Position numbers and translations under genes: made by a program. The notes beneath the pieces were generated by a model, which saw only the letters and a list, made by a program, of their open reading frames with translations, did no database searches and had not been told where the DNA came from. DNA of 64,000 nucleotides from Thermodesulfobacteriota bacterium. Its GTDB lineage: Bacteria; Desulfobacterota; Desulfobulbia; Desulfobulbales; Desulfurivibrionaceae. The DNA lies in NCBI GenBank assembly GCA_049323635.1, contig JBMONS010000035.1, positions 2,744 to 66,743 of the forward strand, written 5' to 3'. Below, piece by piece: positions 6,480 through 42,366 of the stretch (positions within the stretch are counted from its first letter, which is position 1; every line of letters begins with the position of its first letter).

Positions 6480-6495
6480 AATATAGGCTTTTTTG

Positions 6496-8642
<2,147 letters not shown>

Positions 8643-8646
<4 letters not shown>

Positions 8647-9247: not shown

Positions 9248-10153
9248 ATGCCCGCAAATATGGCGGCAAACGCCAACAGGATCGACACCATGGCAATCGA
9301 TACCACGACCACCCCGGCGGATTACCGCCACCCCATCCCCATAGCCGATGGCATCTACTGGGTGGGCTTTTACGACCAGCCCTCCGGCCTGCACTGCAAC
9401 CCTTACCTGATCGTAGATCATGGCGAGGCGGTGGTGATCGACGGCGGCAGCCGCCCTGATTTCCCGGTGGTGATGATGAAGATTCTCCGCGCCGGCATCG
9501 CCCCCGCCTCGATCAGCGCCCTCATTTACCAGCACTACGATCCTGATCTCTGCGGCAGCCTGGCCAACTTCGAGGAGATCATCGACAACCCCGAACTGCG
9601 GATCATCTCCGACAGGGAGAACAACATGTTCATCCGCCACTACTCGGTTTCATCGAAGCTGGTGGCGCTGGACAGCGTGGGACATCGTTTCCGCTTCCGC
9701 TCCGGCAGGGAGCTGCGCTTCATCAACACCCCCTACGCCCATTCCGCCGGCAGCTTCGTTACCCTCGATTCCCACTCCGGGGTGCTCTTTACCAGCGATC
9801 TCTTTGGCAGCTACGGCAGCGAGTGGGAACTCTTTCTGCGTCTTGAACCGCAATGCCGGCCATGCCTCACCTTTCCCCAGTGCCCCCACGGCAAAAGCTA
9901 CTGCCCGGTGGCGGACATCGCCCGCTTCCATCGCCGGATCATGCCGGCCACCGCCGCCCTCCGCCTTGCCATGGAACGGATTGCCGCCCTGCCCTATGCG
10001 ATCCTGGCGCCGCAGCACGGCAGCGTCATCCCGGAACGGACCGACGGCGAGGCCATGCTTTCGATGCTGTGTGGACTCGACGAGGTAGGGATCGACGGGG
10101 TGCTGACCCCATTGCGGGCCGGGCGCCCACCCCTTGGCGAGACGCCGCCATGA
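9248..10153 (+). CDS. flavodiiron-protein-like metallo-beta-lactamase-fold domain protein (ODP-type putative di-iron sensor), no flavodoxin domain
   Basis: Motifs are collinear with the FDP lactamase domain: VVIDGG, QHYDPDLCGSL (versus H-x-E-x-D-H), TPYAHSAGS, LFTSDLFGS, APQHGSV. The start is uncertain (9248, 9260 or 9290). Confidence 0.7.
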   Translation: MPANMAANANRIDTMAIDTTTTPADYRHPIPIADGIYWVGFYDQPSGLHCNPYLIVDHGEAVVIDGGSRPDFPVVMMKILRAGIAPASISALIYQHYDPDLCGSLANFEEIIDNPELRIISDRENNMFIRHYSVSSKLVALDSVGHRFRFRSGRELRFINTPYAHSAGSFVTLDSHSGVLFTSDLFGSYGSEWELFLRLEPQCRPCLTFPQCPHGKSYCPVADIARFHRRIMPATAALRLAMERIAALPYAILAPQHGSVIPERTDGEAMLSMLCGLDEVGIDGVLTPLRAGRPPLGETPP

Positions 10154-11061
10154 TCAAGACCCTGCCCCATCATGCCGACTTCGACGCCGAGGCCAACCGG
10201 CTCATCACCATGCTGGAGTACCAGGCCCGCCAGACCGACAGCGAGATCAACAAAAAGCTGCTCATGGAGCTGGTGCGCGGCTATGCCGAGGCGGAACGGG
10301 AGCTTGCGGAAAAACAGCGCCAGATCGAGGAGGATCTCCGCGCCGGGGCGATGATCCAGAAGACCATGCTGCCCCAGGCGCTGCCGGTCACCGACAACTT
10401 CCGCTTCGCCTCCCGCTTCATCCCCTGCAACTTCCTGGGCGGCGACATGTTCACCATCTTCCCGGTCACCGAGGAGATTGTCGGCATCGCCATCCTCGAC
10501 GTCAGCGGCCACGGGGTGCCCGCCGCCCTAGTCACCGTGTCGGTGGCCCAGACCCTGCAGGAAACCTGGAGCAACTCCATGCCCCACTCGCCCAAGGAGG
10601 TGGTGGAGAGCCTGGAAAAGGACTATCCCTTCGAGCGGTTCGAAAAATTCTTCACCATGGTCTATCTGCTGCTCGACACCAGCTCCGGCCAGCTCCATTA
10701 CTGCAACGCCGGCCACCCGCCGCCGCTGCTGCTCCGGCAAAACGGCTCGGTGGAACCGCTGGAAATGGGCGGCGGCATCGTGGGGCTTTCCGGGATGCTG
10801 GACTTCGAGGAAGGGGAAAAACAGCTGCGGCCGGGCGACACCCTGCTGCTTCATACGGACGGCCTGATCGAACACCAGAACCTGCGGGAGGAGTTCTTTG
10901 GCCTGGATCGCCTGACCGCCCTGCTCCCCTCCCTGCGCCTTCTGGAACCGGAGCCCATGCTCGACCAGATCCTGGCCTCGGCCATGGCGTTTGGCAAGGG
11001 TTGCCCGGTGCGCGACGACATCGCCCTGCTCGCCATCCGCTCTCAGGAGGAAAAGCCATGA
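10150..11061 (+). CDS. PP2C-family (SpoIIE/RsbU-type) serine phosphatase
   Basis: ATGA overlap with the upstream stop. SpoIIE-domain motifs: GGDMFTIF, AILDVSGHGVPAAL, YCNAGHPPPLL, LLLHTDGLIE, DDIALLAI. The N-terminal 70 aa is a coiled-coil-like linker. Confidence 0.85.
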   Translation: MIKTLPHHADFDAEANRLITMLEYQARQTDSEINKKLLMELVRGYAEAERELAEKQRQIEEDLRAGAMIQKTMLPQALPVTDNFRFASRFIPCNFLGGDMFTIFPVTEEIVGIAILDVSGHGVPAALVTVSVAQTLQETWSNSMPHSPKEVVESLEKDYPFERFEKFFTMVYLLLDTSSGQLHYCNAGHPPPLLLRQNGSVEPLEMGGGIVGLSGMLDFEEGEKQLRPGDTLLLHTDGLIEHQNLREEFFGLDRLTALLPSLRLLEPEPMLDQILASAMAFGKGCPVRDDIALLAIRSQEEKP

Positions 11062-11867
11062 CCACCCAGGAGTTGCGCCGGGAGGAACGGCTGACCATCG
11101 CCTCGATCATCTTCCCCTTCCTGGGGTCGCGGAACCGCGATTTCGCCTGTTTCCAGTACCTGCCCCTGGACTTCAGCGCCCATGGGCTCCAGATCGTCAT
11201 CCCCAGATGGGTGGTGAACCGGGAGCGGTTGCTGGCCGGGGAACGGATCAACCTGCACGTGCCGTTCAAGCTCAAGGGCGACACCTACAGTCAGGGGGAG
11301 ATCGCCTGGGCACGGGAAGACGCCAGCGTGGACGGCTTCCGCTACGGCGTCCAGCTGACCAGAAAACACCTGCCCAGCTACCCGCTCTACATCTCGCTGG
11401 GACTGGACAAGGGGGTGGGGGTCGATCTGAGCGACTTCGAGACCCCGGAGCTGATGCTGGTGCAGCTGATCAAGGACGCGGCGCTCCTCAAAAAAGGGAT
11501 CCAGATCTATTTCGACCATCTGATCCCCTACTTCTCCCGGATCGCCGATTACCCGGCCGAACTCTATCCAGAACTCAAGAAGCTGCTCTTCCACGACATC
11601 GGCGAGAAGATCCGGGAAAACCACCGCCGGCTGGAGGCGCTGCACGCCCGCCTTCTCGCCGATGCCTGGAGCCACCCCGGCATCCCCAAGGACTTCGATC
11701 TGGAGGAGCTGCGCGGCTTCATGGAGTCGGAGCTTTCCACCGATCTCCTGCAGCTCGCGCTGGGATCCAGCGCCATCACCCCCTATCTCAGCGCCATCAA
11801 GGAACTGGAGAAGAAGCAGTACACCACTTACAACGCTATCGTGCTGCTCTTTGTCCGCTCACTGTGA
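11058..11867 (+). CDS. PilZ domain protein with a C-terminal helical domain of unknown function
   Basis: ATGA overlap with the phosphatase stop. RxxxR (R7-REE-R11), and DxSxxG (DFSAHG) 27 aa later, match the c-di-GMP-binding PilZ signature. The remaining ~170 aa are unassigned. Confidence 0.7.
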   Translation: MTTQELRREERLTIASIIFPFLGSRNRDFACFQYLPLDFSAHGLQIVIPRWVVNRERLLAGERINLHVPFKLKGDTYSQGEIAWAREDASVDGFRYGVQLTRKHLPSYPLYISLGLDKGVGVDLSDFETPELMLVQLIKDAALLKKGIQIYFDHLIPYFSRIADYPAELYPELKKLLFHDIGEKIRENHRRLEALHARLLADAWSHPGIPKDFDLEELRGFMESELSTDLLQLALGSSAITPYLSAIKELEKKQYTTYNAIVLLFVRSL

Positions 11868-12899
11868 GCCGCGGCCCGGAAGCCCGCCGGCCAGCCACTG
11901 GGCGGCGCTCACCCCGTCCCGCCCCAAGAGTGGGACCACCTCCTTTCCCACTCCCTGCTGCAGCCGCCAGTCGTTTTCCTTGTTGACCTGAAACCAGCTT
12001 ATGCCGGCAAGGCCCCAAAGTTGCGCCTGCTGCCGTGCCTGGGCCAGCCAGGCGGCCTTGTCGCCGCCCTCGGTGGCCGAGGCGGTTTCAAAGACCACGA
12101 TGGGGAGATCCGGGGCGAGGGCGGTCAATTCGTCCCGCAGGGGAGAGAAGATCTCCGCAAAACTCTGCCAGCGGCTCTTCCAGCCATGGGTGGCCTGGCA
12201 ACGGGTGGTTCCCCAGTTGTAGCCGTCCATGCCCAGGACATCCACGTAGCCCCGTCCGGGGAAATAGGCGGCGGCGCGGTTCCAGCCGGCACCCTTGTCG
12301 TAAAGGGGGTGGGGGATCGACTCGGCGTTGGGGCAGAAGGCCCACAGCACGTTATGGGCCCCTTCCCGACGGAAGACCCGCACCACATGCCGGAACATGG
12401 CCACATAGGCCGCCGGGCTCGCCGGGCCATACTCCTGCCGGGAGGTGCCCCAGTGGTAGCGGGCGGTATTCATCTCATGGGCAAAGCGTATGATCACCGG
12501 CCTGCCCCACTCCCTGGCCTGGCGGGCAAAAGCGGCCAGGTAGCGGTCGTAGTCGCCGCCCACGATTTGCTGGGCCGGGATCATGGTCTCCTGGCCGCCC
12601 TGGTAGTGCATCGGCTCCCAGGTGATGCAGGGCAGGGCCTGCTGCCGGGCGATGGCGTCGAGGCTGGCCACCGGGAAGTTGTCCGCGCCAGGGTCGGCGG
12701 GCCATTGCAGGAAGAAGACCACCAGACCGGGCCGGACCCCGGTTTCCTCCGCCGCCTGGTTCAGCTGGGCATCGCTGAGGGGATTGCCCTCCAGCCCCAC
12801 TCCCCACAGCATCCCCCGCGACCAGCGCGCCCCGAGCGACAGCCCGGCCAGGAGCAGCAACATCATGCCGATCCAGGGCCGGCGCGCCGACATGGCCAT
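11859..12899 (-). CDS. secreted glycoside hydrolase family 26 protein
   Basis: Signal peptide MAMSARRPWIGMMLLLLAGLSLGA. GH26 acid/base block RFAHEMNTARYHWG and nucleophile block IVVFETAS. The start at 12899 is 2 nt after the synthase stop. The 5' 231 codons of the 577-aa track ORF are an out-of-frame overlap with the GT2 gene. Confidence 0.8.
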   Translation of the reverse strand: MAMSARRPWIGMMLLLLAGLSLGARWSRGMLWGVGLEGNPLSDAQLNQAAEETGVRPGLVVFFLQWPADPGADNFPVASLDAIARQQALPCITWEPMHYQGGQETMIPAQQIVGGDYDRYLAAFARQAREWGRPVIIRFAHEMNTARYHWGTSRQEYGPASPAAYVAMFRHVVRVFRREGAHNVLWAFCPNAESIPHPLYDKGAGWNRAAAYFPGRGYVDVLGMDGYNWGTTRCQATHGWKSRWQSFAEIFSPLRDELTALAPDLPIVVFETASATEGGDKAAWLAQARQQAQLWGLAGISWFQVNKENDWRLQQGVGKEVVPLLGRDGVSAAQWLAGGLPGRGSQ

Positions 12900-12901
12900 C
12901 C

Positions 12902-14530
12902 CTACTCCTTCTCCAGCGGATGATTGAAGTAGAGCACCCAGGAGAGGATGGCGAAGTGGTAAAGGCACCACAGCGAATTGGCCAGGATGGCGAAAAGCGG
13001 CTGCCGCTCGTAGTAGAGGCGGTGCCCGCCCCACACCATGGCCGCGAAGGCGACCAGGGCCAGGAGCAACTGCGGCCAGAGGCGATACAGGGGCAGGGCG
13101 CGGCTCTGTCCCTTGGGAGTGATGCCGAAGCTGCCCCGCACCCCGAGAATCGCCAGGGCCGAGGCCTTCATGTAGACCGGAAAGCAGATGGCGTTCAGAA
13201 ACAGCCCCTGGAACATCTGCCAGGGCCGGTAGTGGCGCTGCTCCAGGGTGCCGAGAAAGACCGAGAGGGAAAGGACCAGATAGGGAGTAAAAACCAGCAG
13301 GTAGATCTCCGGATAGACAAAGAAGGAGGGAATGCCGGTAAAGAGGTAGAGGATCGGGCAGGCGGCCAGGATCAGGAAGACCCAGCCCACGAAGTAGTGG
13401 GTGCCGGAGAGGAAGTACTCCCACCATTTGGCAGCGGAGAGCCGGTGCGGATTCCGGCGCATCTCGGCAAGAATGGAACGGAAGAGCCCCACCGTGCCCA
13501 GGGCCCAGCGGAACTGCTGACGGAAGTAGCCGCCCAGGTCCTCCGGTCCCATGCCGAAGGCGCATACCTTGTTGAGATAGGCCGACTTCCATCCCTTGAT
13601 GTGGAAGCGGAGCGAGGTGGCGAAGTCCTCGGTCACCGAGCTCTCGTCGAAGCCGCCCACGTCCATGAGCGCCTCGCGCCGGAAGATGACGTTGGTGCCG
13701 CAGCAGAACATCGCCTCCTGCAGGCTCTTGCCCTCGCAGATGAACTCATAGAAGACCGCCTGCTGCAACCCCGAGGCCCTGGCCACCCGGTTGGTCTCGA
13801 AGTTGGAGTAGTACTGGGGAGTCTGCACGAAGGCCAGGCGGGGGTTCTTCTCCATCATCGCCACCAGCGGCTCGACAAAGTCCGGAAAGGGGTTCATGTC
13901 GGCGTCAAAGACGATGATGTACTTCTCCTTCTCGCTGGGCCGGGTGCCGAAATGGCCAAAGGAAAAACCCTCCACATGGCCGCCGTCGATGAAGCGCAGG
14001 AAATCGTTGATCATGCCGGCCTTGGCGCCGTGCCACCTGCGGCGGAAGAGGTTGATGCCGATGCGCTGGCACATGGCGTCGACGCTCTCCCGGTAGGCCC
14101 GCATCCGCTCCGGCGTGTCCCAGTCCAGGTCGTAGCGGGTGTCGTCCAGGAAGTAGAGGCTCTTGTTGGGGTAGGTGAGGTTGTAGAAGCAGGTGAGGGT
14201 GTTCTCCACCACCTCGATGGGCTCCTTGTAGGAGGAGACGATGATGGCCACCGGCGGGTAGTCGTCCAGCTCGGTTTCCGTGGCCAGGGGCGGCGGCGCC
14301 TGGGGCCGGTTGACCACGTGGTAGATGTTCAGGAAGTAGCCGAAACCGTGGATCAGGATGAAGAGCTCGCCAAACAGCAGCATGGAGGCCAGGATCCGCT
14401 CCTGCCACTGGAAGGGGGCGACGAAGAAGAGGGCGGTCCGCACGGAGAGATAGACGATGATCCCCAGCATGGCCAGCAGCACCAGGATGCCCAGCAATGC
14501 GGATCTGCTCCAGTTCCTTGGCTTGAACAT
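12902..14530 (-). CDS. cellulose-synthase-like family 2 glycosyltransferase (processive membrane synthase, no PilZ domain)
   Basis: 542 aa with N- and C-terminal TM helices. Motifs: VAIIVSSYKEP, DDT, HGAKAGMIN, VFDADM, FCCGTN, VTEDFATS (TED), QQFRWALG (QxxRW). Confidence 0.9.
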   Translation of the reverse strand: MFKPRNWSRSALLGILVLLAMLGIIVYLSVRTALFFVAPFQWQERILASMLLFGELFILIHGFGYFLNIYHVVNRPQAPPPLATETELDDYPPVAIIVSSYKEPIEVVENTLTCFYNLTYPNKSLYFLDDTRYDLDWDTPERMRAYRESVDAMCQRIGINLFRRRWHGAKAGMINDFLRFIDGGHVEGFSFGHFGTRPSEKEKYIIVFDADMNPFPDFVEPLVAMMEKNPRLAFVQTPQYYSNFETNRVARASGLQQAVFYEFICEGKSLQEAMFCCGTNVIFRREALMDVGGFDESSVTEDFATSLRFHIKGWKSAYLNKVCAFGMGPEDLGGYFRQQFRWALGTVGLFRSILAEMRRNPHRLSAAKWWEYFLSGTHYFVGWVFLILAACPILYLFTGIPSFFVYPEIYLLVFTPYLVLSLSVFLGTLEQRHYRPWQMFQGLFLNAICFPVYMKASALAILGVRGSFGITPKGQSRALPLYRLWPQLLLALVAFAAMVWGGHRLYYERQPLFAILANSLWCLYHFAILSWVLYFNHPLEKE

Positions 14531-14539
14531 GGCGCCTCC

Positions 14540-17401: not shown

Positions 17402-17404
17402 GGC

Positions 17405-18058
17405 TTACTTCCCCGGAGAACCCAGGCTGAGCTGGAGCTGACGGATAGCCTCCTCCCGCTGCCCGGCCCAAGCGAGGACCTGGGCGTACTTGCGCCGCAC
17501 CTGGACATCATCGGGCAACGCCTCCAGAATCCGCCGATATTCGCGGATGGCCGCCTCGTACTGCTTGAGCCAGCCCAGCAGCTCGGCCAGCTTGAGCCGA
17601 ACACCGTGGTCGCCCGGAACGCGGCCGAGATGGTCCAGGTAGATTGCCCTGGCCCGCTCATACTCCTTGAGACCGACCAGGATGTCCGCCATGGCGATCC
17701 TGTCCGCCTCGCCGAGCTGCTCCAGGGGGAGCTGCTCGAAAAGCCGCAAGGCCTGCTCGGATCTGCCGGCCCAGAAGAGCACCCGGGCCTTCTCCATGCG
17801 CAGGGCCGGCTCGCCGGGCCGCTCCTTGAGAAGCCGGTCATACTCGGCCAGCGCCTCGTCGTAACGCTTGGCAAAGCCGAGCAGCCTGGCCAGCTCCCAC
17901 CGGGCCTGCCAGGCCGAAATCTCGCCTCCCACGGCCACGGCGGCGGGAGGCTCCGTCGGGCCGGGCTGCGCGGCCGCTGTCCCCAACCCCATGAGTTGGC
18001 CGGCCATCAGCCCGCCAAGCACCCAGCCACGCCATCGCCACGCCATTGCCCTTGTCAT
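17405..18058 (-). CDS. periplasmic TPR repeat protein
   Basis: 217 aa. Signal-like N-terminus (GGLMAGQLMGLGTAAAQP) followed by TPR-like repeats (YDEALAEYDRLLKERPGEP...). There is an ATGA overlap with the upstream gene. Confidence 0.65.
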   Translation of the reverse strand: MTRAMAWRWRGWVLGGLMAGQLMGLGTAAAQPGPTEPPAAVAVGGEISAWQARWELARLLGFAKRYDEALAEYDRLLKERPGEPALRMEKARVLFWAGRSEQALRLFEQLPLEQLGEADRIAMADILVGLKEYERARAIYLDHLGRVPGDHGVRLKLAELLGWLKQYEAAIREYRRILEALPDDVQVRRKYAQVLAWAGQREEAIRQLQLSLGSPGK

Positions 18059-18762
18059 CGCTCATTCTCCAACAGCTTGCGATACTGCTCAATCGCCTCG
18101 TCCAGCCGGCCGGCCCACCCCAGCACCCTGGCCAGTCCGAGCCGGGCCGGCCGGTGGTCCGGCTGGCGGGCCAGCACCTGGGCAAAGAGCGCGACCGCCT
18201 CATCGTAACGCCGCTGCCACCCCAAAACCGTGGCCAGCTTGACCGACACCGACACCTCGCCGGGGGCGCTGGCCAGAGCGTTCCGGTAGCAGGTTGTTGC
18301 CTGCTCGAACCGCTGCCCGGCCACGGCCAGATCCCCCAGGCGTTGCCAAAAGGGGAAGCGGACCGCCGGATCCTCCGGCAACCGGCCGGCCAGGGCGATT
18401 CCCTTGTCCAGCTCTCCCGCCTGCGTATAGAGTCCGGCCAACTCGTCGATCAACTGGGTGTCGTGAGGATGATCGCCCAGGGCCAGTTCCAGCTCCCCCA
18501 TGGCCAAGGCCGTATTCCCCTGCCGCCGATAGGCCTCGGCCAGACGCCGCCGCGCCGTGGCGTCGATCAGGCCGGCCTCGATGGCCTGCCGGTAGAGCAG
18601 GATCGCTCCGGGAAGATCCCGATGGACGAAGGCAACCTCGGCACGGCGGAAGAGCACCATCTCCCGGTGCGCATGGTGATACCCGGCGCTGGCCGCCAGC
18701 CCCACGGCCAGCAGCAAGACGAGATACATCCCCCATTGGGCCTGCTTACCCTGCCAGTCCAT
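18055..18762 (-). CDS. membrane-anchored TPR repeat protein
   Basis: 235 aa with one N-terminal TM helix (MYLVLLLAVGLAASAGY) followed by TPR-like repeats. The start may be 18762 or 18729. With the 18762 start it overlaps the 3' end of the RsbW-like gene. Confidence 0.65.
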   Translation of the reverse strand: MDWQGKQAQWGMYLVLLLAVGLAASAGYHHAHREMVLFRRAEVAFVHRDLPGAILLYRQAIEAGLIDATARRRLAEAYRRQGNTALAMGELELALGDHPHDTQLIDELAGLYTQAGELDKGIALAGRLPEDPAVRFPFWQRLGDLAVAGQRFEQATTCYRNALASAPGEVSVSVKLATVLGWQRRYDEAVALFAQVLARQPDHRPARLGLARVLGWAGRLDEAIEQYRKLLENER

Positions 18763-19225: not shown

Positions 19226-19235
19226 CGGCGGTTCC

Positions 19236-19574: not shown

Positions 19575-19601
19575 ATTGCTCCTTGTCCGCTCCGTGCGTG
19601 C

Positions 19602-21674: not shown

Positions 21675-23461
21675 CCCTCACCCCCCTCGAATTGCCCGCC
21701 GTCCGTGAACCCGGCCGGCAGCCGCACCACGAACTCGGCACCTTGGCCCGGCCCGTCGCTCTTCGCCGCGATAGAGCCGTGGTTGGCGATCAGATAATTG
21801 GCGCAGGAGTGCAGGCCGAACCCGGACCCACGCTCCTTGGTGGAGTACCCAAAGGAAAAGAAACGGGCCTGTTGCTCCTCGGTGAAGCCGCAGCCGGTGT
21901 CCCGCACCGCGATTCGCACCATCGGATTTTCTCCCGGCTCAAGCGCCGTCTCCACCGACAACTCCCGTGGTCTTTCTCCGGCCATGCCATCCATGGCCTC
22001 GTAGCCGTTCTTGAGCAGGTTGACCAGCACCTGCAACAGCCGCGCCTCTTCCACCCGAACCGGCGGGGTTTCGCCAAGCTTCAAATTGAGCACGATGCCC
22101 CGTTTGGCCACCGCCTCAGCCACCATCTTCACCGCATCGCGCACCAGCCGGTTGATATCGACCAGCTCCGGATTGTCCATCAGCCGGGCATAGCGCATCT
22201 GCAGGCCGATGATATTCTCGATGTGGCCGTGCTTGCTGGCGATGTTGTCCAACTCCCGCACCGCCCGCTCAAACTCCTCGGCGATGGAGCCGGGCAGATG
22301 GCGGATGATCATGGCCAACCGCCGCCTCTCCTCGTCGCTCAACGCACGGCCGCCTTCCAGGTGCTCGGCAAGCGGCGCCAACGATGGCGCCAGCCGGTCG
22401 CGCAACGGGCTGTGCCGCAGGTGGCCAAGCAGCAGGGAGGCGCTCACCTTGGCCGGGGTGATGGCGTTGCCGATATTGTGGAGCACCCCCACCGCCATCT
22501 CGGCCATACCCGCCTCATGGGCCTGCTTGAGCAGGATCTCCTGGGCGGCCTCCAGTTCCCGGGTGCGCTCGGCCACCTTCTCCTCCAGGGAACGGGAATA
22601 GCCGTCCAGCTCCGCCATGGTCTGCCGGAGCCGGCCAGTCATGGCGTTGAACGAGTCGGCCAGGCCGGCGAACTCCTCGCACACCATGCCTTCAATCCCG
22701 ATGACATGGGAAAGATCGCCGCCCTCCACCCGCCGCACCCCGTCGTGCAGGGCGCCGGTCCCCCGCACCAGCTCCCGTGTGAGCAACACCGCTGCGAAGA
22801 GACCCGCGCCGAAGAAGAGCACCATCACCCCGGCCAGATAGAAGCGGAGGTGGCGCATCTGGGTTGCCCATTCCTCTCTGGCCTGCCCGACTTCCTTCTC
22901 CAGGGAGGCCAGCGAATAGCCGCACCGGACCATCCCCCACAGGCTGTCGCCGCTATAGACCGGAAAGACCGCCTCCATCACCGCCCCGCCGCTGGCTGGC
23001 ACGTCCTCGGGCCAGAAGTACTCCACCTGCATCGCCGTGCCGGGCCGCATTGCCGGGAACCGCGCTCCCATCAAAGCGGCGGCCCGCTTGCTTGCTGGAT
23101 CGTCCATCCTGAGGCCGACCTGGCCGCTGTCGCTGTGGGCGGCCACCCGCCGCTCCTGATCCATGACCAGGCAGTAGGCGATATCAGGATCGTCGCTGGC
23201 CACCTCGGCGATGAGCCCCTGCAGAAAGGTCAGATCCAGACCGGCCACCGCCTCGCCTGCGCTCACCGCGGTGTGGCGGACCAGGGAGGCGCCACGGCTG
23301 GCCAGCGACTGACGGATCATGGCGATGTTGCGGCCCAACTGCGCGTCCCGAAACTGCATGGTCTCCCGCGTCACCAGCAGCCCGAAGGCGGGGAAGAGCA
23401 CCATGAGCAGCAGCAGATTCATGCCCAGCAGATAGGCGCGGATGGATGGTTGTTTTCGCAT
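21671..23461 (-). CDS. membrane sensor histidine kinase with a periplasmic domain and HAMP
   Basis: Two TM helices flank a ~200-aa periplasmic region. It has a HAMP-like segment, the H-region VGVLHNIGNAIT, and a HATPase domain (LLKNGYEAM, DTGCGF, GSGFGLH). The start was chosen at MRKQPS (23461). There is an ATGA overlap with the downstream kinase. Confidence 0.85.
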   Translation of the reverse strand: MRKQPSIRAYLLGMNLLLLMVLFPAFGLLVTRETMQFRDAQLGRNIAMIRQSLASRGASLVRHTAVSAGEAVAGLDLTFLQGLIAEVASDDPDIAYCLVMDQERRVAAHSDSGQVGLRMDDPASKRAAALMGARFPAMRPGTAMQVEYFWPEDVPASGGAVMEAVFPVYSGDSLWGMVRCGYSLASLEKEVGQAREEWATQMRHLRFYLAGVMVLFFGAGLFAAVLLTRELVRGTGALHDGVRRVEGGDLSHVIGIEGMVCEEFAGLADSFNAMTGRLRQTMAELDGYSRSLEEKVAERTRELEAAQEILLKQAHEAGMAEMAVGVLHNIGNAITPAKVSASLLLGHLRHSPLRDRLAPSLAPLAEHLEGGRALSDEERRRLAMIIRHLPGSIAEEFERAVRELDNIASKHGHIENIIGLQMRYARLMDNPELVDINRLVRDAVKMVAEAVAKRGIVLNLKLGETPPVRVEEARLLQVLVNLLKNGYEAMDGMAGERPRELSVETALEPGENPMVRIAVRDTGCGFTEEQQARFFSFGYSTKERGSGFGLHSCANYLIANHGSIAAKSDGPGQGAEFVVRLPAGFTDGGQFEGGEG

Positions 23462-23677
23462 GGATTGTCTTTGCACAGCCCTCCGCGACAAAATGCAAGC
23501 CCCAGCCCTGATGGCAGCCGGATCCATATCAAGAGTAGTTGCGAGGCAGGGGAAAAGACAAGAAAAAAGAGGAGAAGCAAACCGGCGGGAGATGATCAAT
23601 CACATCTCCCCCGGCTGTTTTTTTTGCGGATCCGGGCACCAGGGGCTCCGCCGCCGATGGTACCCGGATGGGATTGC

Positions 23678-25777
23678 CTAGAATTTATAACGGAGTTCCC
23701 CCCAGAGGGCTCGGCCAGCAATGGGATAATCGTAGGGGATGTACGCGCCGCCCGGAGCGGCAGCCGCGTAGGGGCTGGGGATGCGGCCATCCTCATCAAA
23801 AATATTCATGACTCCCATGGCCGCCTCCCAATGCCCAGCGATGTTCTTCCGCCGCACCAGCAGGTTGACCACCTCGTAGTCGGCGATGTCGCCGCGCGGA
23901 TCACCCTTGGCGCGGTGGCGGTCGCCGATCCAATAGAGCTGGCCGTCCAGGGACCAGTCCGGGAGGAAGGCCCAACTCGGATTCAGGTAGAACTGCATCT
24001 CCGGTGCATCCGCCGCCACCGCATCGGTCTTCTTGTTCTCGGAACGCTGATAAGCGAAGTTGCTACGCAGCCGGAAGTCGCGGAGCAGGCGCCAATCCAT
24101 CTCCACCTCGAAGCCCCGGCCCTCCTGCTCGCCGTAGTTGGTGTACATCTGGGGCAAACTGGGGCCGACAAACTCGATGAGTTCGGTAGCCTGATAGTTG
24201 AACAGGTTGAAGATCAAGCGGAGATCCTTGGTGGGCTGGTAGTCAAAAGCCAACTCGATGGTCTCGATCTCTTCCGGCGCAAGATTAGGATTCCCGATTA
24301 CCACCGGGTTGTTCTTGACATACTGTTCGCCAAAGGAAGGAGCGCGAAAGGCTTGGCCATACATGAGCTTGGTGGTCAGATCATAGCGGGTCTCCCAGAC
24401 CAACGCGGCCCTGGGATTGACGGTGGAACCGAAGTCGGAATACTCGTCATACCGCGCACCGGCGGTGAGAGTCCATGCAGGCGCTAGCTGCCATTCATCC
24501 TGTACCAAGCCGTAGATCAGGGTGCGGCTTGCTTCGTCAATAAAAATAGCGTTAGGAGCGGTCACATGCACCATGGGGCCAAACTGGTTGACCCCGGCTG
24601 CCGGACCGAAGTTCTTGTACTGATCGCGGCCAAAGTTGTAGGACTTGGCGCCAGCACCGAGGCGAAGCTGATGCCCTGCAAATCCCTTGTACACGCCGCT
24701 CGCCTCCATACCGCCATCCTGGGAGGTTACAATGGGTTCTCCCAACTGGTTACGAAAACTGGGAGGGAAAAACTGAATAAACGTATCTTGGTCGATATAA
24801 GAGTAATAAACGCGGCTTTCCAATTCCCAATTCTTGACCAGCTTATCGTTGTGGTAGGTCAAATCGGCAAGCATCGACTTAGTATCCATATCGTTGCCAT
24901 AGGTGATAGCCTGGGAGCCGCCAGGACCAAGACTGGACTCCTGCAAGGTTCCATAGAGATGGAGGGTCCAGTTTTCCTTGCGCACGTTGAGATGGCTGTC
25001 CAACTGTTCGTTCCAGGTGTCCATGTGGCCTGGCGCGTTGGAAAGCGCACCGGCACCCACGGCGTACAGGAAATCCCGCTCGATGATCCGATCCAGATCT
25101 CCGCCGGTCTTGCGGCGCTCCACCCCAAAGGCCACGTCGAAGCCGTTGTACTGACCGCCATGCTGCGCCCAGATATCCGAGGTGTCAAAGGAGCCGTAGC
25201 GGGCTCCGGCCTGGGTGCCGTTGATCTCGAAGTTGTCCTTGGTGATGACGTTAACCGTACCAGCAAAGGCATCCGCGCCGTGCAAGGCCGAGCCCGGCCC
25301 CCGCACCACCTCCACCCGCGAGATCATGGCCACCGGCATCTGAAAATTCATAAAACGGCTGCCCTGATAGTTGGAGGTGAATGGGACGCCGTTGATCAAC
25401 AGAAGCACCTGGGGATTTTGGCTCGTATGCACCCCGCGGATCGACCAGATGGAGGAGAAATACGCGGTCCCAGACGGCTCCACATGCAACCCGGGCACCG
25501 ACTCCAGCACCTCGTCCAGGGTGGTGGCGCCCATGGACTTGATGTCCTCGGCGGTTATGACCGAGGCCACCGAGGGGGCCAGATGCACCGGCTTGAGGGA
25601 GCCGGTGGCGGTCAGGAGCAGCCGGTCAGCGCGGTAGACGTCCTCCTCCTGCGGTCCCTGCCCGAACATCTCCTGGAAGGATTTCGCCTCGTTCGAGACG
25701 GGCTCGGCAGCCATGCCCAGGGACGGGCCAGAAAAAAAGAACAATGCCGCCATGGTCGCCAGTCGTTTCCTACGCAT
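23678..25777 (-). CDS. TonB-dependent outer-membrane receptor
   Basis: 699 aa with a signal peptide. The plug region has DEVLESVPGLHV / IRGV, followed by a long beta-barrel that ends in ELRYKF. Confidence 0.9.
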   Translation of the reverse strand: MRRKRLATMAALFFFSGPSLGMAAEPVSNEAKSFQEMFGQGPQEEDVYRADRLLLTATGSLKPVHLAPSVASVITAEDIKSMGATTLDEVLESVPGLHVEPSGTAYFSSIWSIRGVHTSQNPQVLLLINGVPFTSNYQGSRFMNFQMPVAMISRVEVVRGPGSALHGADAFAGTVNVITKDNFEINGTQAGARYGSFDTSDIWAQHGGQYNGFDVAFGVERRKTGGDLDRIIERDFLYAVGAGALSNAPGHMDTWNEQLDSHLNVRKENWTLHLYGTLQESSLGPGGSQAITYGNDMDTKSMLADLTYHNDKLVKNWELESRVYYSYIDQDTFIQFFPPSFRNQLGEPIVTSQDGGMEASGVYKGFAGHQLRLGAGAKSYNFGRDQYKNFGPAAGVNQFGPMVHVTAPNAIFIDEASRTLIYGLVQDEWQLAPAWTLTAGARYDEYSDFGSTVNPRAALVWETRYDLTTKLMYGQAFRAPSFGEQYVKNNPVVIGNPNLAPEEIETIELAFDYQPTKDLRLIFNLFNYQATELIEFVGPSLPQMYTNYGEQEGRGFEVEMDWRLLRDFRLRSNFAYQRSENKKTDAVAADAPEMQFYLNPSWAFLPDWSLDGQLYWIGDRHRAKGDPRGDIADYEVVNLLVRRKNIAGHWEAAMGVMNIFDEDGRIPSPYAAAAPGGAYIPYDYPIAGRALWGELRYKF

Positions 25778-26009
25778 GCTGCCCCCGAAAGAAAGAATAT
25801 GGAGTTGAGGGAATTCGTTCTCCAGAAAAAATACGGATGCTGTGACCAGCCTAAAAAAAATTCAGAGAATAGGTCAAGATGATTGTCGCACCCTATCCAA
25901 CAGAACACCCTGAATAGCCAACAAAATCTCAACCATTTCCTTTGCTGTGGGGAAACGGAAACACGCGTTACAGGGAGAGACTCCCAATGGGGGGCAATCA
26001 GGAAGGGCG

Positions 26010-26972
26010 TTACCTGTATCCGATGACGGTGGTGGCCATGTCCAGGGCCTGAGCACTGATGGCAAGCCCGATGCGCTCGGCGACGCCCAGGTTGATGGAA
26101 ACCTGGGTGTCCAGCGGGTCCATCACCCCGATCTCGGCGGGACGCTGGCCATGCAGCAGGATGTTCCTGGCCACGGCGCCGGCCTGGGCGCCGATGTTGC
26201 GGTTGTCCGGGTTGACGGAAAGGGCCAGCCCCAGCTTGGTGATGTTGGGCGACTGGCCGACGCAAAGCAGCTTCTCCCGCATGCACCGCTCCTCCAGCCA
26301 ATCCATGTTCTCGACGGTGTAGAGCACCGGATCGTTGATCACCCAGAAGGCATCCACGCTCGGGGCGATCTGTTTGAAGGCGCGGGCGAAGTCGCCGGAG
26401 CGCTCAATGGAGTCCACCACCAGCTCAAGCCCCAGCAGGGCGGCGGCCTTGCGGGCCTGCTCCACCAGCTGGCGCGAGCCGGGGCCGTGGATCAGGCCGA
26501 TGCGGCGCACCTTGGGCGAAAAGATGGTCATGTTGACAAACTGGGTGCCCGGCGCCATCTCCGCGGCAATGCCGCACATGTTGGCGCTGCCGGAGAGCAG
26601 GTCGTAGCGCTGCCAGTTGAGCACCATGGCGAAGAGCACCGGAATCTCCTGGCGCTCCTTGGTCCACAGCTTGGCGGCGTAGGCGGCCTTGGCCCCCAGC
26701 GCCAGGATCAGCGACGGCTTTTGGTCCAGCAGCCGCTCACGCAGGGAGGGATCCTTGGCGATGTCGCCCTGGAGGTTGAACTCCCGCACCTCCGAATCCA
26801 CCTCCTGCCGGAAAGACTCCAGTGGCTGGCGATACGCCTCCTCGCTGTCGGAGAGCAGCACCACAACCGGGCCCCTGGCCGTGGCAGCGCGCACCTCTGG
26901 CGTTGCGGCGCACAGGCCGAAGAGCAGAGCCAGCAGCGCGAGGCTTATGTCAAGGAATCGTTTGCCACGCAT
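26010..26972 (-). CDS. periplasmic ABC_sub_bind-type (PF04392-like) substrate-binding protein
   Basis: Signal peptide, then the pattern VVVLLSDSEEAY...PSLILALGAKAAYAAK...IPVLFAMV typical of this family. No cognate permease or ATPase lies nearby. Confidence 0.65.
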   Translation of the reverse strand: MRGKRFLDISLALLALLFGLCAATPEVRAATARGPVVVLLSDSEEAYRQPLESFRQEVDSEVREFNLQGDIAKDPSLRERLLDQKPSLILALGAKAAYAAKLWTKERQEIPVLFAMVLNWQRYDLLSGSANMCGIAAEMAPGTQFVNMTIFSPKVRRIGLIHGPGSRQLVEQARKAAALLGLELVVDSIERSGDFARAFKQIAPSVDAFWVINDPVLYTVENMDWLEERCMREKLLCVGQSPNITKLGLALSVNPDNRNIGAQAGAVARNILLHGQRPAEIGVMDPLDTQVSINLGVAERIGLAISAQALDMATTVIGYR

Positions 26973-27783
26973 CGATCTGCAGCATCTCCATGATGGTTGC
27001 CGTGTTCTTGTCCTGCCTGCCCGCCAAAAAGATCTTTTTCACGCGCTCGACCTCGGCGGCGGACACCGCGCCCTGGGCATAGCACAGCACCGGCAGGGGA
27101 ATGGGATCGGAGACCGCCAGGGTCTTGACCGTCGCCAGGATGTTGGGATTGATCCGCCCCAGCTGCTCCAGGTTGTCCTGGCTGACCAAGGCGGCGCTCA
27201 CCTGCCGCAGGGTCAGGGCAAAAAGCGCGTCGGAATCCTTGGCCGTGGTGAGGAATTTCAGCTTGCCGCCATCCAGGCCATGGGGCCGGAAAACCGCCTG
27301 GTCGAGCATGGCCATGCCCGCTGGCCCCATGGGGGTCATGGCAATGGTGGTGCTGGGGATGTCCCTGATGGTGAACGCCGAATCCGCCGCCACCAGCAAC
27401 GCCTTCCGGTAGGTGGTGACGCCCTGGCGCATCGGCGCGAGAAAAGGCTTGAAGCGCGCTTGGTTGCCGTCCTGCCGCAGATACCACTCGGGCAGGAAGA
27501 GGAAGCCGGGAGGATCGCCCTGCATCTTGGAATCGAAATCCCGCAGCCGGGCAAAGGGCTGGAAGGAGAGGGTGAGCCCCTCGGCGGAGAGGGCCGAATC
27601 CATGACCTGCTTGAGGCGGGAGAGGTTGCTCTGGCTGGAATCGGGATTGAAGAAGTAGAAAAGACCGGGCGAGGTCGCCATGGCGCCCCCTGGGCCGGGC
27701 AGGGAAAGCAACAGCATTCCGGCCAGGAGCAGGAGGACGATGCTTGCTTTGGCTGGCCGGGGAAGGTTCATGCCGTGGTTCAC
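26950..27783 (-). CDS. periplasmic substrate-binding protein (PhnD/PBP2-like)
   Basis: Signal peptide (IVLLLLAGMLLLSLPGPGGA). The overall pattern resembles phosphonate-bd type binding proteins, but family assignment by eye is tentative. It overlaps the downstream gene start by 23 nt. Confidence 0.5.
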   Translation of the reverse strand: MNHGMNLPRPAKASIVLLLLAGMLLLSLPGPGGAMATSPGLFYFFNPDSSQSNLSRLKQVMDSALSAEGLTLSFQPFARLRDFDSKMQGDPPGFLFLPEWYLRQDGNQARFKPFLAPMRQGVTTYRKALLVAADSAFTIRDIPSTTIAMTPMGPAGMAMLDQAVFRPHGLDGGKLKFLTTAKDSDALFALTLRQVSAALVSQDNLEQLGRINPNILATVKTLAVSDPIPLPVLCYAQGAVSAAEVERVKKIFLAGRQDKNTATIMEMLQIDAWQTIP

Positions 27784-27851
27784 GCTATCCAGGGAAACGG
27801 GCTTTTCGCGCCGCCACGCACCCGGCGCGCGAAAAGGGCAACAGGCGTGGA

Positions 27852-28706
27852 CTATAACGGAAAGACACTCACCGCCTCAACATATTTCTCCAGAAACTCG
27901 TCGATGATCAGCCGCATGTTCTCCTCGAAACCCGGGACCCGGGGCAGCTCTTCCCGGATGTTTTCATAGGCCAGCACGTTGAAGAAGGAGTCCGCCGGAT
28001 CGTCCGGATCGATCTCGACCAGATGAATCAACTCGTTGGCCAGCCGGACGATCCGCGCCCCGAGTCGGCCGGCGCGCGGGTCCGCGCCGCCATGGTGCAA
28101 CCCCACCGGCACGGTGACGCTCTCCGGCACCCCCCATTTGACGAGCAGCGCCATGCCCACCTCGGCATGGTCGGTGTGGAGCAGCCGGCGCTCCACCATC
28201 ACCAGGCTCCGTTCATCCTCCTCGCCGAGGTTGTAGGCCTCCAGCCGCAGGGGATGTTCGAGCACCACCTTGCCCACATCATGGAGCAGGCCGGCGGTAT
28301 AGATGGCGGCGGTATCGAGATTCTTGCAGTGCCGGGCGATAAGGCTGGCCAACATGGCCACTCCCAGGCTGTGGCGCCACAGTTCGCCTCGGCCCAGGGC
28401 ATAGGCGCGGTGCGAGCCCCCGAGCAGCCCCACCGAGGCGCCGCTGATGGCGAGAATCTTCACCGCCTCCAGCCCGAGGCGCACCACGATGTCCTTGATG
28501 GAGGTGATCTTCTGCCGGTAGCCGAAGTAGGCGGAGTTGGCCAGTTGCAGCATGTTGGCGGTGAGGCCCGGATCCTGCTCGATCCGTTCGGCCAGCCGGC
28601 TGATGGAGCAGTCCGCTTCGTTGGCCACGGAAAGGATGTCCAGCGCCACTTCGGGGCAGGGCGCGAGTTTATCCACGTCCTTGATGTATTCCTGGGCTAT
28701 GTCCAT
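27852..28706 (-). CDS. HDOD domain signalling protein
   Basis: HDOD signature IEQDPGLTANMLQLANSAYFGYRQKITSIKDIVVRLGLEAV, plus a degenerate HD region (LLHDVGKVVL). Confidence 0.8.
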   Translation of the reverse strand: MDIAQEYIKDVDKLAPCPEVALDILSVANEADCSISRLAERIEQDPGLTANMLQLANSAYFGYRQKITSIKDIVVRLGLEAVKILAISGASVGLLGGSHRAYALGRGELWRHSLGVAMLASLIARHCKNLDTAAIYTAGLLHDVGKVVLEHPLRLEAYNLGEEDERSLVMVERRLLHTDHAEVGMALLVKWGVPESVTVPVGLHHGGADPRAGRLGARIVRLANELIHLVEIDPDDPADSFFNVLAYENIREELPRVPGFEENMRLIIDEFLEKYVEAVSVFPL

Positions 28707-31015: not shown

Positions 31016-31036
31016 GAACTTGCGGAGCCCTTGGCC

Positions 31037-40451: not shown

Positions 40452-40456
40452 GACTC

Positions 40457-42357: not shown

Positions 42358-42366
42358 GGCGCTCTC

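What the first reader, a model, noticed from the sequence alone, without database searches (positions are those of the whole stretch)
9248..28706. Integrated hypothesis: a roughly 19-kb partner-switching / c-di-GMP / polysaccharide-secretion supercluster
Thirteen co-directional minus-strand genes with short or overlapping junctions run from 28706 to 11859: HDOD, two binding proteins, a TonB receptor, two kinases, STAS, an RsbW-like kinase, three TPR proteins, a GT2 synthase and GH26. Their 3' end overlaps by 9 nt the 3' end of a plus-strand operon encoding the missing partner-switch component (a PP2C phosphatase), together with a di-iron sensor-like domain and a PilZ protein. All three parts of a partner switch are therefore present (kinase, STAS substrate, phosphatase). 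No sigma factor is nearby, and the genes physically downstream of STAS/kinase are a polysaccharide synthase machine whose synthase lacks its usual PilZ. The parsimonious reading is that O2/NO/redox sensing and c-di-GMP control secretion of an unknown glycan through STAS phosphorylation. I do not know of a characterised system with this composition.
Basis: partly seen in the sequence, partly recalled or inferred. Interest (0 to 1): 0.8.

Follow-up and report, generated by a model that had tools for sequence, protein, structure and literature searches.

The report
Phospho-switch-controlled polysaccharide secretion gene cluster
Ten genes encode a cellulose-synthase-like sugar-polymer export machine that, across many anaerobic bacteria, sits beside its own phosphorylation switch and c-di-GMP receptor (here also an oxygen-sensor-like iron protein), a combination I found described nowhere; the neighbouring 9 kb of sensor genes is a separate unit.

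Summary
The gene content and coordinates are real. The proposed 19-kb "supercluster" is two independently conserved units.

The real system is about 10.3 kb (9248-19574) and has ten genes:
- Regulators: STAS, an RsbW-like kinase, ODP, a PP2C phosphatase and a PilZ protein.
- Machine: two small TPR proteins, a TPR plus 16-strand porin (BcsC/PelB/PgaA-like fold), a BcsA-like GT2 synthase that ends where BcsA's PilZ would begin, and a lichenase-like GH26.

The machine core recurs in all 80 species-level genomes I fetched, from several phyla. Of 41 loci with full flanks:
- 33 carry STAS and 33 carry this PilZ family.
- 26 carry PP2C, 19 RsbW and 6 ODP.
- Gene orders are shuffled, and no sigma factor was found.

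PP2C orthologues carry interchangeable sensors (CHASE/PAS, REC). The sensor-less short form pairs with ODP.

The upstream genes (two binding proteins, TonB receptor, two kinases) form their own cassette in 36 metagenome loci. That cassette is never next to these polysaccharide genes. HDOD is not conserved either.

Likely mechanism (inferred): ODP-gated dephosphorylation of STAS Ser56, together with c-di-GMP on the trans-acting PilZ, licenses synthesis of a beta-glucan.

Precedents exist in Vibrio SypA/SypE and Anabaena HenR/All4160. I rate this a new variant of a known kind.

The parts
9248..10153 (+). ODP, a stand-alone oxygen-binding di-iron protein (metallo-beta-lactamase fold). Proposed trans-acting sensor for the PP2C.
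   Evidence: PF19583 E 8e-52. Matches the T. denticola and T. maritima ODP structures 6qrq/6qnm. Ligand positions H96, D98, D100, H165, D184, H257 and a Cys4 insertion (C203, C206, C212, C219) are invariant in 9 orthologues. Sits next to a PP2C gene in 8 of 9 ODP-containing loci.
10150..11061 (+). PP2C/SpoIIE-type serine phosphatase, short form. About 100 aa of N-terminal helical region and no sensor domain.
   Evidence: PF07228 E 3.5e-47, residues 111-297. The DVSGHG, TDG and DD motifs are visible in the translation. Its start overlaps the ODP stop by 4 nt. Orthologues carry CHASE+PAS, PAS, REC or a fused RsbW-kinase N-terminus instead.
11058..11867 (+). Stand-alone PilZ c-di-GMP receptor: N-terminal PilZ barrel plus a C-terminal helical bundle of unknown fold family.
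   Evidence: PF07238. R7xxxR11 is 70-90% conserved and D38xS40xxG43 is at least 90% conserved across the 49 locus orthologues aligned with the window protein. AF2 model pLDDT 84. Best fold match for the barrel is the PilZ domain of BcsA; the helical bundle has no match. The helical domain occurs in only 155 of 1.84 billion cluster representatives, nearly all with this same architecture.
11859..12899 (-). Periplasmic GH26 glycoside hydrolase, lichenase-like. Proposed polymer-trimming enzyme.
   Evidence: PF02156. Full-length match to the C. thermocellum CelH GH26 domain (2vi0, E 2e-35) with both glutamate-containing motifs (HE, and E before ASA) aligned (these are the catalytic residues as I recall them); mannanases reach only E 1e-7. 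N-terminal signal-peptide-like sequence. Present in 75 of 80 loci directly after GT2.
12902..14530 (-). Processive BcsA-like GT2 synthase without a PilZ domain.
   Evidence: Pfam GT2 and Cellulose_synt hits. BcsA structures E 5e-35 over residues 46-477. D209xD211, T300-E-D302, Q338QFRW342 and the gating-loop motif F468xxTPK473 are invariant. Scores 223 bits against a 699-bit cut-off for NCBIfam CelA.
14540..17401 (-). Outer-membrane exporter: periplasmic TPR domain plus a C-terminal 16-strand beta-barrel.
   Evidence: TPR Pfam hits and a weak PgaA_barrel hit. NCBIfam PgaA porin region E 1e-9. AF2 model of the C-terminal 466 aa has pLDDT 78. Top fold matches are BcsC 9b8a/6tzk, PelB 9h80 and PgaA 4y25. 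The protein ends in ...RYSF.
17405..18058 (-). Small TPR protein with a signal-peptide-like N-terminus (tprB).
   Evidence: TPR Pfam hits. Present in 74 of 80 loci in the same position.
18055..18762 (-). Small TPR protein with an N-terminal membrane-anchor or signal-like segment (tprA).
   Evidence: TPR Pfam hits. Present in 74 of 80 loci, always the first gene of the machine core.
18746..19264 (-). RsbW/SpoIIAB-type serine kinase.
   Evidence: PF13581 E 4e-26. Matches RsbW 6m36 with the N box (EAVTN..H) and G boxes aligned. Present in 19 of 41 full loci, always with STAS.
19236..19574 (-). Single-domain STAS protein with phosphorylatable Ser56. Proposed output element of the switch.
   Evidence: PF01740 E 1.5e-20. 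Aligns to SpoIIAA 1th8_B with FIDSSGLG matching FMDSSGLG. The D-S pair is at least 90% conserved in 48 orthologues. Has its own AAGGAG ribosome-binding site 5 nt before the ATG. Present in 33 of 41 full loci.
19602..27783 (-). NOT part of the system. Adjacent, independently conserved signalling cassette: two periplasmic binding proteins, a TonB-dependent receptor, an sCache kinase and a hybrid kinase.
   Evidence: The same five families occur together in 36 metagenome loci with no STAS, GT2, GH26, PilZ or PP2C nearby. They are absent from the 80 polysaccharide loci except for generic kinase hits.
27852..28706 (-). NOT part of the system. HDOD protein, a neighbour gene.
   Evidence: PF08668 E 6e-50. 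Found in 1 of 80 polysaccharide loci and 0 of 36 cassette loci. A sigma-70-like promoter match lies at 28766-28737.

Best explanation
Ten genes (9248-19574) form one system: a synthase-dependent exopolysaccharide secretion machine with its own post-translational control.

The machine:
- An inner-membrane BcsA-like GT2 polymerises and translocates a beta-glucan-type chain.
- Two small TPR proteins and a TPR-porin guide the chain across the periplasm and outer membrane.
- A periplasmic lichenase-like GH26 trims the polymer.

Control (inferred):
- The synthase has lost its built-in PilZ domain. A dedicated PilZ-plus-helical-bundle protein binds c-di-GMP and acts on the synthase in trans.
- A partner switch without a sigma factor adds a second gate. 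The RsbW-like kinase phosphorylates STAS on Ser56, and the PP2C removes the phosphate.
- By analogy with SypA and All4160, unphosphorylated STAS is the active form and binds the synthase/PilZ complex.
- In this genome the PP2C has no sensor domain. It is regulated by the co-translated di-iron protein ODP, so oxygen or redox state would set the STAS phosphorylation level.

Shown: gene content, intact motifs, folds and the conserved co-location.
Inferred: every protein-protein step, the direction of regulation, the ODP signal and the polymer.
For: - The core tprA-tprB-porin-GT2-GH26 is invariant in 74-80 of 80 species-level loci from Thermodesulfobacteriota, Verrucomicrobiota, Chromatiales, Riflebacteria and others, with GT2 56-73% identical.
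- Regulators co-locate in at least six different gene orders. Of 41 loci with full flanks, STAS is in 33, PilZ in 33, PP2C in 26, RsbW in 19 and ODP in 6.
- STAS and PilZ co-occur 32/1/1/7, Fisher p = 3e-6.
- The reverse test from PilZ homologues returned the same cluster in 3 of 3 contigs.
- The PilZ helical domain is essentially confined to this family.
- PP2C orthologues swap sensors (CHASE+4 PAS, PAS, REC, fused kinase). The short sensor-less form is the one paired with ODP.
- Catalytic and ligand motifs are intact in STAS, the kinase, PP2C, PilZ, ODP, GT2 and GH26.
- The porin's best fold matches are BcsC, PelB and PgaA.
- No sigma factor was found in 1.29 Mb of loci, and only rpoD is present in the window.
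- Precedents for STAS phosphorylation controlling polysaccharide output: PMC4517449 and PMC13555669.
Against: - There is no experimental or structural evidence for any interaction.
- 14 of 33 STAS-bearing loci show no separate RsbW gene within 10 kb. Some have it fused to the PP2C, as in L037.
- Five full loci, mostly from one GT2 clade, have no regulators nearby. The machine can therefore exist without them, or they are encoded elsewhere.
- Loci are phylogenetically non-independent, so the p-value overstates support.
- ODP accompanies only about 15% of clusters.
- The polymer's identity rests only on the best matches of GH26 and GT2.
Confidence: 0.6

Rival explanations
1. All about 19 kb is one integrated supercluster, in which the binding proteins, TonB receptor, two histidine kinases and HDOD feed the same partner switch and secretion machine.
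For: - Thirteen co-directional genes with short junctions.
- Only 27 nt separate the hybrid-kinase stop from the STAS start, so read-through transcription is likely.
- In some relatives a PAS kinase, Hpt and REC-PP2C sit inside the cluster (L119), so two-component input to this switch does occur elsewhere.
Against: - The five-gene cassette is conserved on its own in 36 metagenome loci, including about 10 with full 10-kb flanks. None has a STAS, RsbW, PP2C, PilZ, GT2 or GH26 gene.
- None of the 80 polysaccharide loci has the cassette.
- The window's PP2C has no receiver domain to accept a phosphoryl group.
- In relatives STAS is typically the first gene of the operon (for example L005).
Confidence: 0.1
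2. A classical partner switch. The RsbW-like kinase is an anti-sigma factor for a sigma factor encoded elsewhere. STAS frees that sigma factor, which then transcribes the polysaccharide operon, so control is transcriptional rather than enzymatic.
For: The best NCBIfam and PDB matches of the kinase and STAS are RsbW/SpoIIAB and RsbV/SpoIIAA. Co-location of a regulator with its target operon is common.
Against: - No sigma-70-family gene is detectable in any of the 80 loci or near the cluster in the window.
- STAS is retained more often than the kinase (33 versus 19 of 41). That is the opposite of what is expected if the kinase were the output element.
- The phmmer query could miss very divergent ECF sigma factors.
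Confidence: 0.13
3. STAS acts upstream of c-di-GMP. As with HsbA-HsbD or SiaC-SiaD in Pseudomonas aeruginosa, STAS would switch a diguanylate cyclase on or off, and the PilZ protein would then read the c-di-GMP level and activate the synthase.
For: - STAS and PilZ co-occur tightly and are often adjacent.
- The PP2C shows weak similarity to the SiaA phosphatase model.
- GGDEF genes lie within 10 kb in 17 of 80 loci.
Against: - There is no GGDEF gene in the 64-kb window.
- A rate of 17 of 80 is close to what I would expect for genomes rich in GGDEF genes (my estimate, not computed), and the GGDEF proteins found have unrelated architectures.
Confidence: 0.13

Closest known systems
Bacterial cellulose synthase system (BcsA-BcsB-BcsC-BcsZ)
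   Same: - Processive GT2 with D, DxD, TED, QxxRW and a gating-loop motif.
- Best sequence match of the GT2 is BcsA.
- TPR plus 16-strand porin whose best fold match is BcsC.
- A periplasmic glycoside hydrolase and c-di-GMP input through a PilZ barrel most like BcsA's.
   Different: - No BcsB.
- PilZ is a separate protein with an extra helical domain.
- The hydrolase is GH26 (lichenase-like), not GH8.
- Two extra small TPR proteins.
- GT2 falls far below the NCBIfam CelA cut-off (223 versus 699 bits).
- A STAS/kinase/phosphatase switch is attached.
Vibrio fischeri Syp regulation (SypA STAS protein and SypE kinase-REC-phosphatase)
   Same: - A single-domain STAS protein with Ser56, encoded in a polysaccharide locus and controlled by an RsbW-type kinase and a PP2C phosphatase.
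- No sigma factor is involved, and the unphosphorylated form is active (PMC4517449).
- One relative (L037) even fuses the kinase and phosphatase as SypE does.
   Different: - From my own knowledge, syp is an 18-gene locus with many glycosyltransferases and a Wza-type exporter, not a single synthase.
- Here the kinase and phosphatase are separate proteins, the input is ODP rather than a receiver domain, and a PilZ protein is added.
Anabaena HenR / All4160 / Alr3423 module
   Same: A SpoIIE-type phosphatase and a serine kinase set the phosphorylation of a STAS domain, which directly controls a glycosyltransferase needed for an envelope polysaccharide (PMC13555669).
   Different: - There the STAS domain is fused to the glycosyltransferase and the genes are dispersed.
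- Here STAS is a free protein and all genes are clustered.
- The enzyme here is a processive membrane synthase.
Alginate Alg8/Alg44 and other split c-di-GMP receptors
   Same: A GT2 synthase without PilZ is paired with a separate PilZ-containing protein (my own knowledge of Alg44).
   Different: Alg44 is a membrane protein with a periplasmic MFP-like domain. This PilZ protein is soluble and carries a family-restricted helical bundle.
Treponema denticola / Thermotoga maritima ODP
   Same: Same Pfam family and the same aligned metal-ligand positions.
   Different: - The known ODP signals to a chemoreceptor (my own knowledge of the original study, which I did not retrieve).
- Here ODP is paired with a PP2C phosphatase and carries an invariant Cys4 insertion that the solved ODPs lack.

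Membership tests
Bcs cellulose synthase system | BcsA catalytic subunit with a C-terminal PilZ domain, reaching the curated CelA/BcsA model cut-off | tested here: not met
   GT2 is 542 aa and aligns to BcsA only up to the point where PilZ begins. TIGR03030 scores 223 bits against a 699-bit cut-off; PRK11498 scores 137 against 992.
Bcs cellulose synthase system | BcsB co-polymerase subunit | tested here: not met
   No BcsB Pfam hit on any cluster protein. No additional recurrent gene family was found in the 80 loci.
Synthase-dependent exopolysaccharide secretion (general class: Bcs, Pga, Pel, Alg) | Processive inner-membrane synthase, plus a TPR-containing outer-membrane beta-barrel exporter, plus a periplasmic polymer-modifying hydrolase | tested here: met
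   GT2 motifs. Porin model matches BcsC, PelB and PgaA. GH26 with aligned catalytic residues and a signal-like N-terminus.
Partner-switching system (RsbV/RsbW/RsbU type) | STAS protein with a conserved phosphorylatable serine | tested here: met
   Ser56 in FIDSSGLG aligns with the SpoIIAA phospho-serine motif. At least 90% conserved in 48 orthologues.
Partner-switching system (RsbV/RsbW/RsbU type) | RsbW-type GHKL serine kinase and a PP2C phosphatase | tested here: met
   PF13581 E 4e-26 with N and G boxes aligned to RsbW. PF07228 E 3.5e-47. Enzymatic activity was not testable.
Partner-switching system (RsbV/RsbW/RsbU type) | A sigma factor as the switched partner | tested here: not met
   No sigma-70-family gene in the 80 loci. 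Only rpoD is present in the window, 33 kb away. A distant target cannot be excluded.
PilZ c-di-GMP receptors | RxxxR and (D/N)xSxxG binding motifs on a PilZ barrel | tested here: met
   R7xxxR11 and D38xS40xxG43 are present and conserved. The barrel fold matches c-di-GMP-bound PilZ structures. Binding itself is not testable here.
ODP (oxygen-binding di-iron protein, PF19583) | Family model above cut-off and conserved di-iron ligand positions | tested here: met
   176 bits against a 27-bit cut-off. HxDxD, H, D and H align to 6qrq and are invariant in 9 orthologues. O2 binding is not testable here.
Vibrio Syp locus | SypE-type fused kinase-REC-phosphatase and the multi-glycosyltransferase syp gene set | tested here: not met
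   The kinase and phosphatase are separate genes with no receiver domain. The machine has a single GT2 synthase.
PNAG (PgaABCD) | PgaC synthase model and a PgaB deacetylase | tested here: not met
   TIGR03937 scores 77 bits against a 422-bit cut-off. No deacetylase domain is present in the cluster.

The most novel reading that the evidence does not exclude
This would be an uncharacterised, widely transferred class of synthase-dependent polysaccharide system, found mainly in anaerobes. The c-di-GMP receptor has been split from the synthase into a dedicated PilZ-helical-bundle subunit. A free STAS protein would be a direct, phosphorylation-gated allosteric subunit of the synthase complex. In the ODP-bearing subset, oxygen exposure would trigger matrix production through a di-iron sensor acting on a PP2C.
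Probability: 0.35. Interest if true: 0.75.

Novelty: new variant of a known kind. Interest (0 to 1): 0.62.

Why it matters
- How STAS proteins control polysaccharide output without a sigma factor is unresolved; the target of SypA was still unknown in the 2015 study I read. This system pairs a STAS switch with a minimal machine that has a single synthase, so the list of possible targets is very short and the question becomes directly testable.
- It offers a natural example of a BcsA-like synthase whose c-di-GMP receptor acts in trans.
- It suggests a new output for the ODP di-iron sensor, namely a phosphatase.
- The carriers are sulfate reducers, syntrophs, Geobacter, anammox bacteria and Opitutaceae, whose biofilm matrices matter for corrosion, sediments and bioreactors but are poorly understood.
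- The polymer may be a cellulose-like or mixed-linkage beta-glucan.

Tried and rejected
- An exact-protein look-up of the window's GT2 found no record. The window's source was identified through a 100%-identical NCBI protein from a Thermodesulfobacteriota MAG.
- The closest relative's contig (84% identical GT2) is cut at tprA, so it could not test the upstream genes.
- The sigma-54 promoter consensus gave no hit in the region.
- The terminator and promoter scan gave nothing useful between genes, apart from a promoter-like site upstream of HDOD.
- A sequence search of PDB with the porin region found nothing. A structure prediction was needed instead.
- A Rosetta-stone search for fusions of the PilZ helical domain found none. 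Two longer hits had no Pfam domains.
- The word-indexed homologue search for the porin region returned only 3 proteins.
- Clustering of unassigned ORFs in the 80 loci found no further conserved component. The only recurrent families were generic GGDEF and ABC proteins.
- Literature searches for this gene combination found no description.
- I rejected the reading of GH26 as a mannanase.
- I rejected the 19261-19605 frame for STAS.

Full report
**1. What is in the window**

Plus strand:
- ODP, a stand-alone protein of the oxygen-binding di-iron family (PF19583, E 8e-52), at 9248-10153.
- A SpoIIE/PP2C phosphatase at 10150-11061.
- A PilZ protein at 11058-11867.
- Both junctions are 4-nt overlaps.

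Minus strand:

| Gene | Coordinates |
|---|---|
| GH26 | 11859-12899 |
| GT2 | 12902-14530 |
| TPR + barrel | 14540-17401 |
| TPR (tprB) | 17405-18058 |
| TPR (tprA) | 18055-18762 |
| RsbW-like kinase | 18746-19264 |
| STAS | 19236-19574 |
| Hybrid histidine kinase | 19602-21674 |
| sCache/HAMP kinase | 21671-23599 |
| TonB-dependent receptor | 23678-25777 |
| ABC_sub_bind binding protein | 26010-26972 |
| Phosphonate-bd binding protein | 26950-27783 |
| HDOD | 27852-28706 |

Further points:
- The ORF tool's longer GH26 (to 13592) and the 19261-19605 "STAS" ORF are frame artefacts of a 65% GC genome.
- The 9-nt overlap of the convergent stop codons is exact.
- Core junctions run from -29 to +9 nt.
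- STAS has its own AAGGAG ribosome-binding site, 27 nt after the kinase stop.
- The window comes from a Thermodesulfobacteriota MAG (100%-identical NCBI protein).

**2. The machine**

- GT2 is most similar to BcsA (E 5e-35) across the glycosyltransferase and membrane parts. It ends where BcsA's PilZ would start.
- The DxD, TED, QxxRW and gating-loop (FxxTPK) motifs are invariant among orthologues.
- An AlphaFold model of the C-terminal 466 residues of the large TPR protein (pLDDT 78) has helical repeats followed by 16 long strands.
- Its five best PDB fold matches are BcsC, PelB and PgaA, the known exporters of synthase-dependent systems.
- GH26 matches the Clostridium thermocellum CelH GH26 domain over its full length (E 2e-35). 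From my own knowledge this domain is the lichenase CtLic26A. Both glutamate-containing motifs (the catalytic residues as I recall them) align. Mannanases reach only E 1e-7.
- There is no BcsB. No NCBIfam equivalog reaches its cut-off for any of the ten proteins, and the PilZ and GH26 proteins hit no model at all.
- I therefore read this as a synthase-dependent secretion system of the Bcs/Pga/Pel/Alg kind but not a member of any of them.
- Its polymer is probably a beta-glucan, either cellulose-like or mixed-linkage. This is inference. BcsA-like enzymes can make either product (PMC10374906).

**3. Are the regulators really part of it?**

I fetched 80 species-level genome loci encoding GT2 orthologues (56-73% identity). 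They come from Desulfobacter, Desulfovibrionaceae, Geobacter, Syntrophales, Opitutaceae and other Verrucomicrobiota, Thiocapsa, Riflebacteria, Oligoflexia and Brocadiaceae. I then searched their ORFs with every window protein.

- The core tprA-tprB-porin-GT2-GH26 is essentially invariant (74-80 of 80).
- Among the 41 loci with at least 7 kb upstream and 3.5 kb downstream, the counts are:

| Regulator | Loci (of 41) |
|---|---|
| STAS | 33 |
| PilZ (same family, full length) | 33 |
| PP2C | 26 |
| RsbW-like kinase | 19 |
| ODP | 6 |
| None of these | 5 |

- Gene orders differ widely. Examples are ODP>PP2C>STAS>tprA..., ODP>PP2C>PilZ>STAS>tprA..., GH26>PilZ>RsbW<STAS<PP2C<, and PP2C>STAS>RsbW>tprA...GH26>PilZ<. 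That is the signature of functional rather than accidental linkage.
- STAS and PilZ co-occur 32/1/1/7 (p = 3e-6, not corrected for phylogeny).
- Loci without regulators fall mostly in one GT2 clade.
- The reverse test also holds. Three PilZ-family members on long contigs all lie next to GH26-GT2-TPR with STAS and PP2C.
- The PilZ protein's C-terminal helical bundle (AF2 pLDDT 84, no PDB fold match) occurs in only 155 of 1.84 billion cluster representatives. Almost all have the same 250-295 aa architecture. It is a dedicated accessory subunit.
- No sigma-70-family gene was detected in the 1.29 Mb of loci. In the window the only one is rpoD next to dnaG.

**4. Inputs**

- PP2C orthologues in these clusters carry different N-terminal sensors: CHASE plus four PAS, single PAS, a receiver domain, or a fused RsbW-type kinase as in SypE.
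- One locus inserts a PAS kinase and an Hpt before a REC-PP2C.
- The short, sensor-less PP2C (300-330 aa) is the form found immediately downstream of ODP, in 8 of 9 ODP-bearing loci.
- This supports the inference that ODP is the sensor acting in trans on the phosphatase.
- ODP aligns with the solved T. denticola and T. maritima proteins, with all metal-ligand positions conserved.
- This subfamily also carries an invariant Cys4 insertion that the solved ODPs lack.

**5. What is not part of it**

- A metagenome scan with the sCache kinase returned 36 loci. In these, the binding proteins, TonB receptor, sCache kinase and hybrid kinase recur together.
- None of those loci has any STAS, RsbW, PP2C, PilZ, GT2, GH26 or HDOD gene. 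What follows the cassette varies, for example arginase and arginine decarboxylase, or a HAD hydrolase.
- Conversely, the 80 polysaccharide loci lack the cassette.
- The 19-kb "supercluster" is therefore two neighbouring units plus HDOD.
- Read-through from the cassette into STAS is possible in this genome. However, the window's PP2C has no receiver domain to accept such input.

**6. Mechanism and comparison with known systems**

Motifs are intact for:
- phospho-Ser56 of STAS;
- the kinase N and G boxes;
- the PP2C metal-binding motifs;
- PilZ RxxxR and DxSxxG.

The best-supported model is dual post-translational gating of the synthase:
- c-di-GMP acts through the trans-acting PilZ subunit.
- STAS phosphorylation state is set by the kinase against the sensor-controlled PP2C.
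- STAS is the output-proximal element, because it is retained more often than the kinase.

Closest precedents:
- Vibrio SypA/SypE, where unphosphorylated SypA is active and its target is unknown (PMC4517449).
- Anabaena HenR/All4160, where the STAS domain is fused to a glycosyltransferase (PMC13555669).
- Split PilZ receptors such as Alg44 (my own knowledge).

Rivals I could not exclude:
- a distant sigma factor as the switched partner;
- a diguanylate cyclase as the STAS target, as with HsbA/HsbD or SiaC/SiaD. No GGDEF gene lies in the window, and GGDEF genes near 17 of 80 loci are about what I would expect as background (my estimate).

**7. Verdict**

It is wrong about the extent of the unit, and it overstates the lack of precedent.
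- I found no description of this gene combination in four full-text searches or in NCBIfam. Those searches cover open-access literature only.
- I rate it a new variant of a known kind, of real interest to the biofilm and partner-switching fields. Cultured carriers such as Desulfobacter curvatus DSM 3379 are available for testing.

Noticed in passing
window 9854-9904 (ODP residues 203-219): This ODP subfamily carries an invariant Cys4 insertion (C-x2-C-x5-7-C-x6-C-P) in 9 of 9 orthologues. The solved T. denticola ODP lacks it. It could be a zinc, iron-sulfur or redox-active site.
   Followed up: partly
window 19602-27783; loci L082-L117: Two periplasmic binding proteins, a TonB-dependent receptor, an sCache kinase and a hybrid kinase form a conserved signalling cassette in 36 metagenome loci. 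The TonB receptor sits either before or after the kinases. Its signal and output are unknown, and no response regulator with an output domain is adjacent.
   Followed up: partly
L037:3876-6266 (Opitutaceae MAG): A 796-aa protein fuses an RsbW-type kinase domain to a PP2C domain next to STAS in the orthologous cluster. This is the same logic as Vibrio SypE.
   Followed up: no
L119:11286-16696: In one relative a 1153-aa PAS kinase, an Hpt protein, a REC-PP2C, STAS and an RsbW kinase sit between GH26 and PilZ. This resembles the HptB-HsbR-HsbA relay of Pseudomonas.
   Followed up: no
window 13931-14005 (GT2 residues 176-200): The GT2 family has an insertion of about 19 residues in the glycosyltransferase domain relative to BcsA, with conserved Gly and Phe positions. 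It is a candidate docking site for PilZ or STAS.
   Followed up: no
L017:11472-11777 and four other loci: A small conserved ORF of about 96 aa with no Pfam hit follows GH26 in five loci where no STAS or PilZ gene was detected.
   Followed up: no
L031:3303-4305: The PP2C next to ODP is split into three overlapping ORFs. It is either a pseudogene or an assembly frameshift.
   Followed up: no
window 60761-62056: An HD_5 + DUF3391 protein (HD-GYP-like, a possible c-di-GMP phosphodiesterase) is the only other c-di-GMP-related gene seen in the window besides PilZ. No GGDEF gene is present.
   Followed up: no
window 30986-32776: A Schlafen AlbA_2 + HATPase_c_4 protein lies in a stretch of lower GC, with third-position GC of 0.66 against about 0.85 for its neighbours. 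It may be horizontally acquired.
   Followed up: no
window 24001-26000: The TonB-receptor region has the lowest GC in the window (0.57 versus about 0.65).
   Followed up: no
window 38979-43152: A run of Mrp/Mbh-type membrane subunits (two Proton_antipo_M proteins, MnhB and MbhE) lies on the minus strand.
   Followed up: no
window 5391-9170 and L081:9806-13617: GlgX-type debranching enzyme, a GDSL lipase and an Lcl_C-domain protein flank ODP both in the window and in the closest relative. They are absent from more distant loci.
   Followed up: partly
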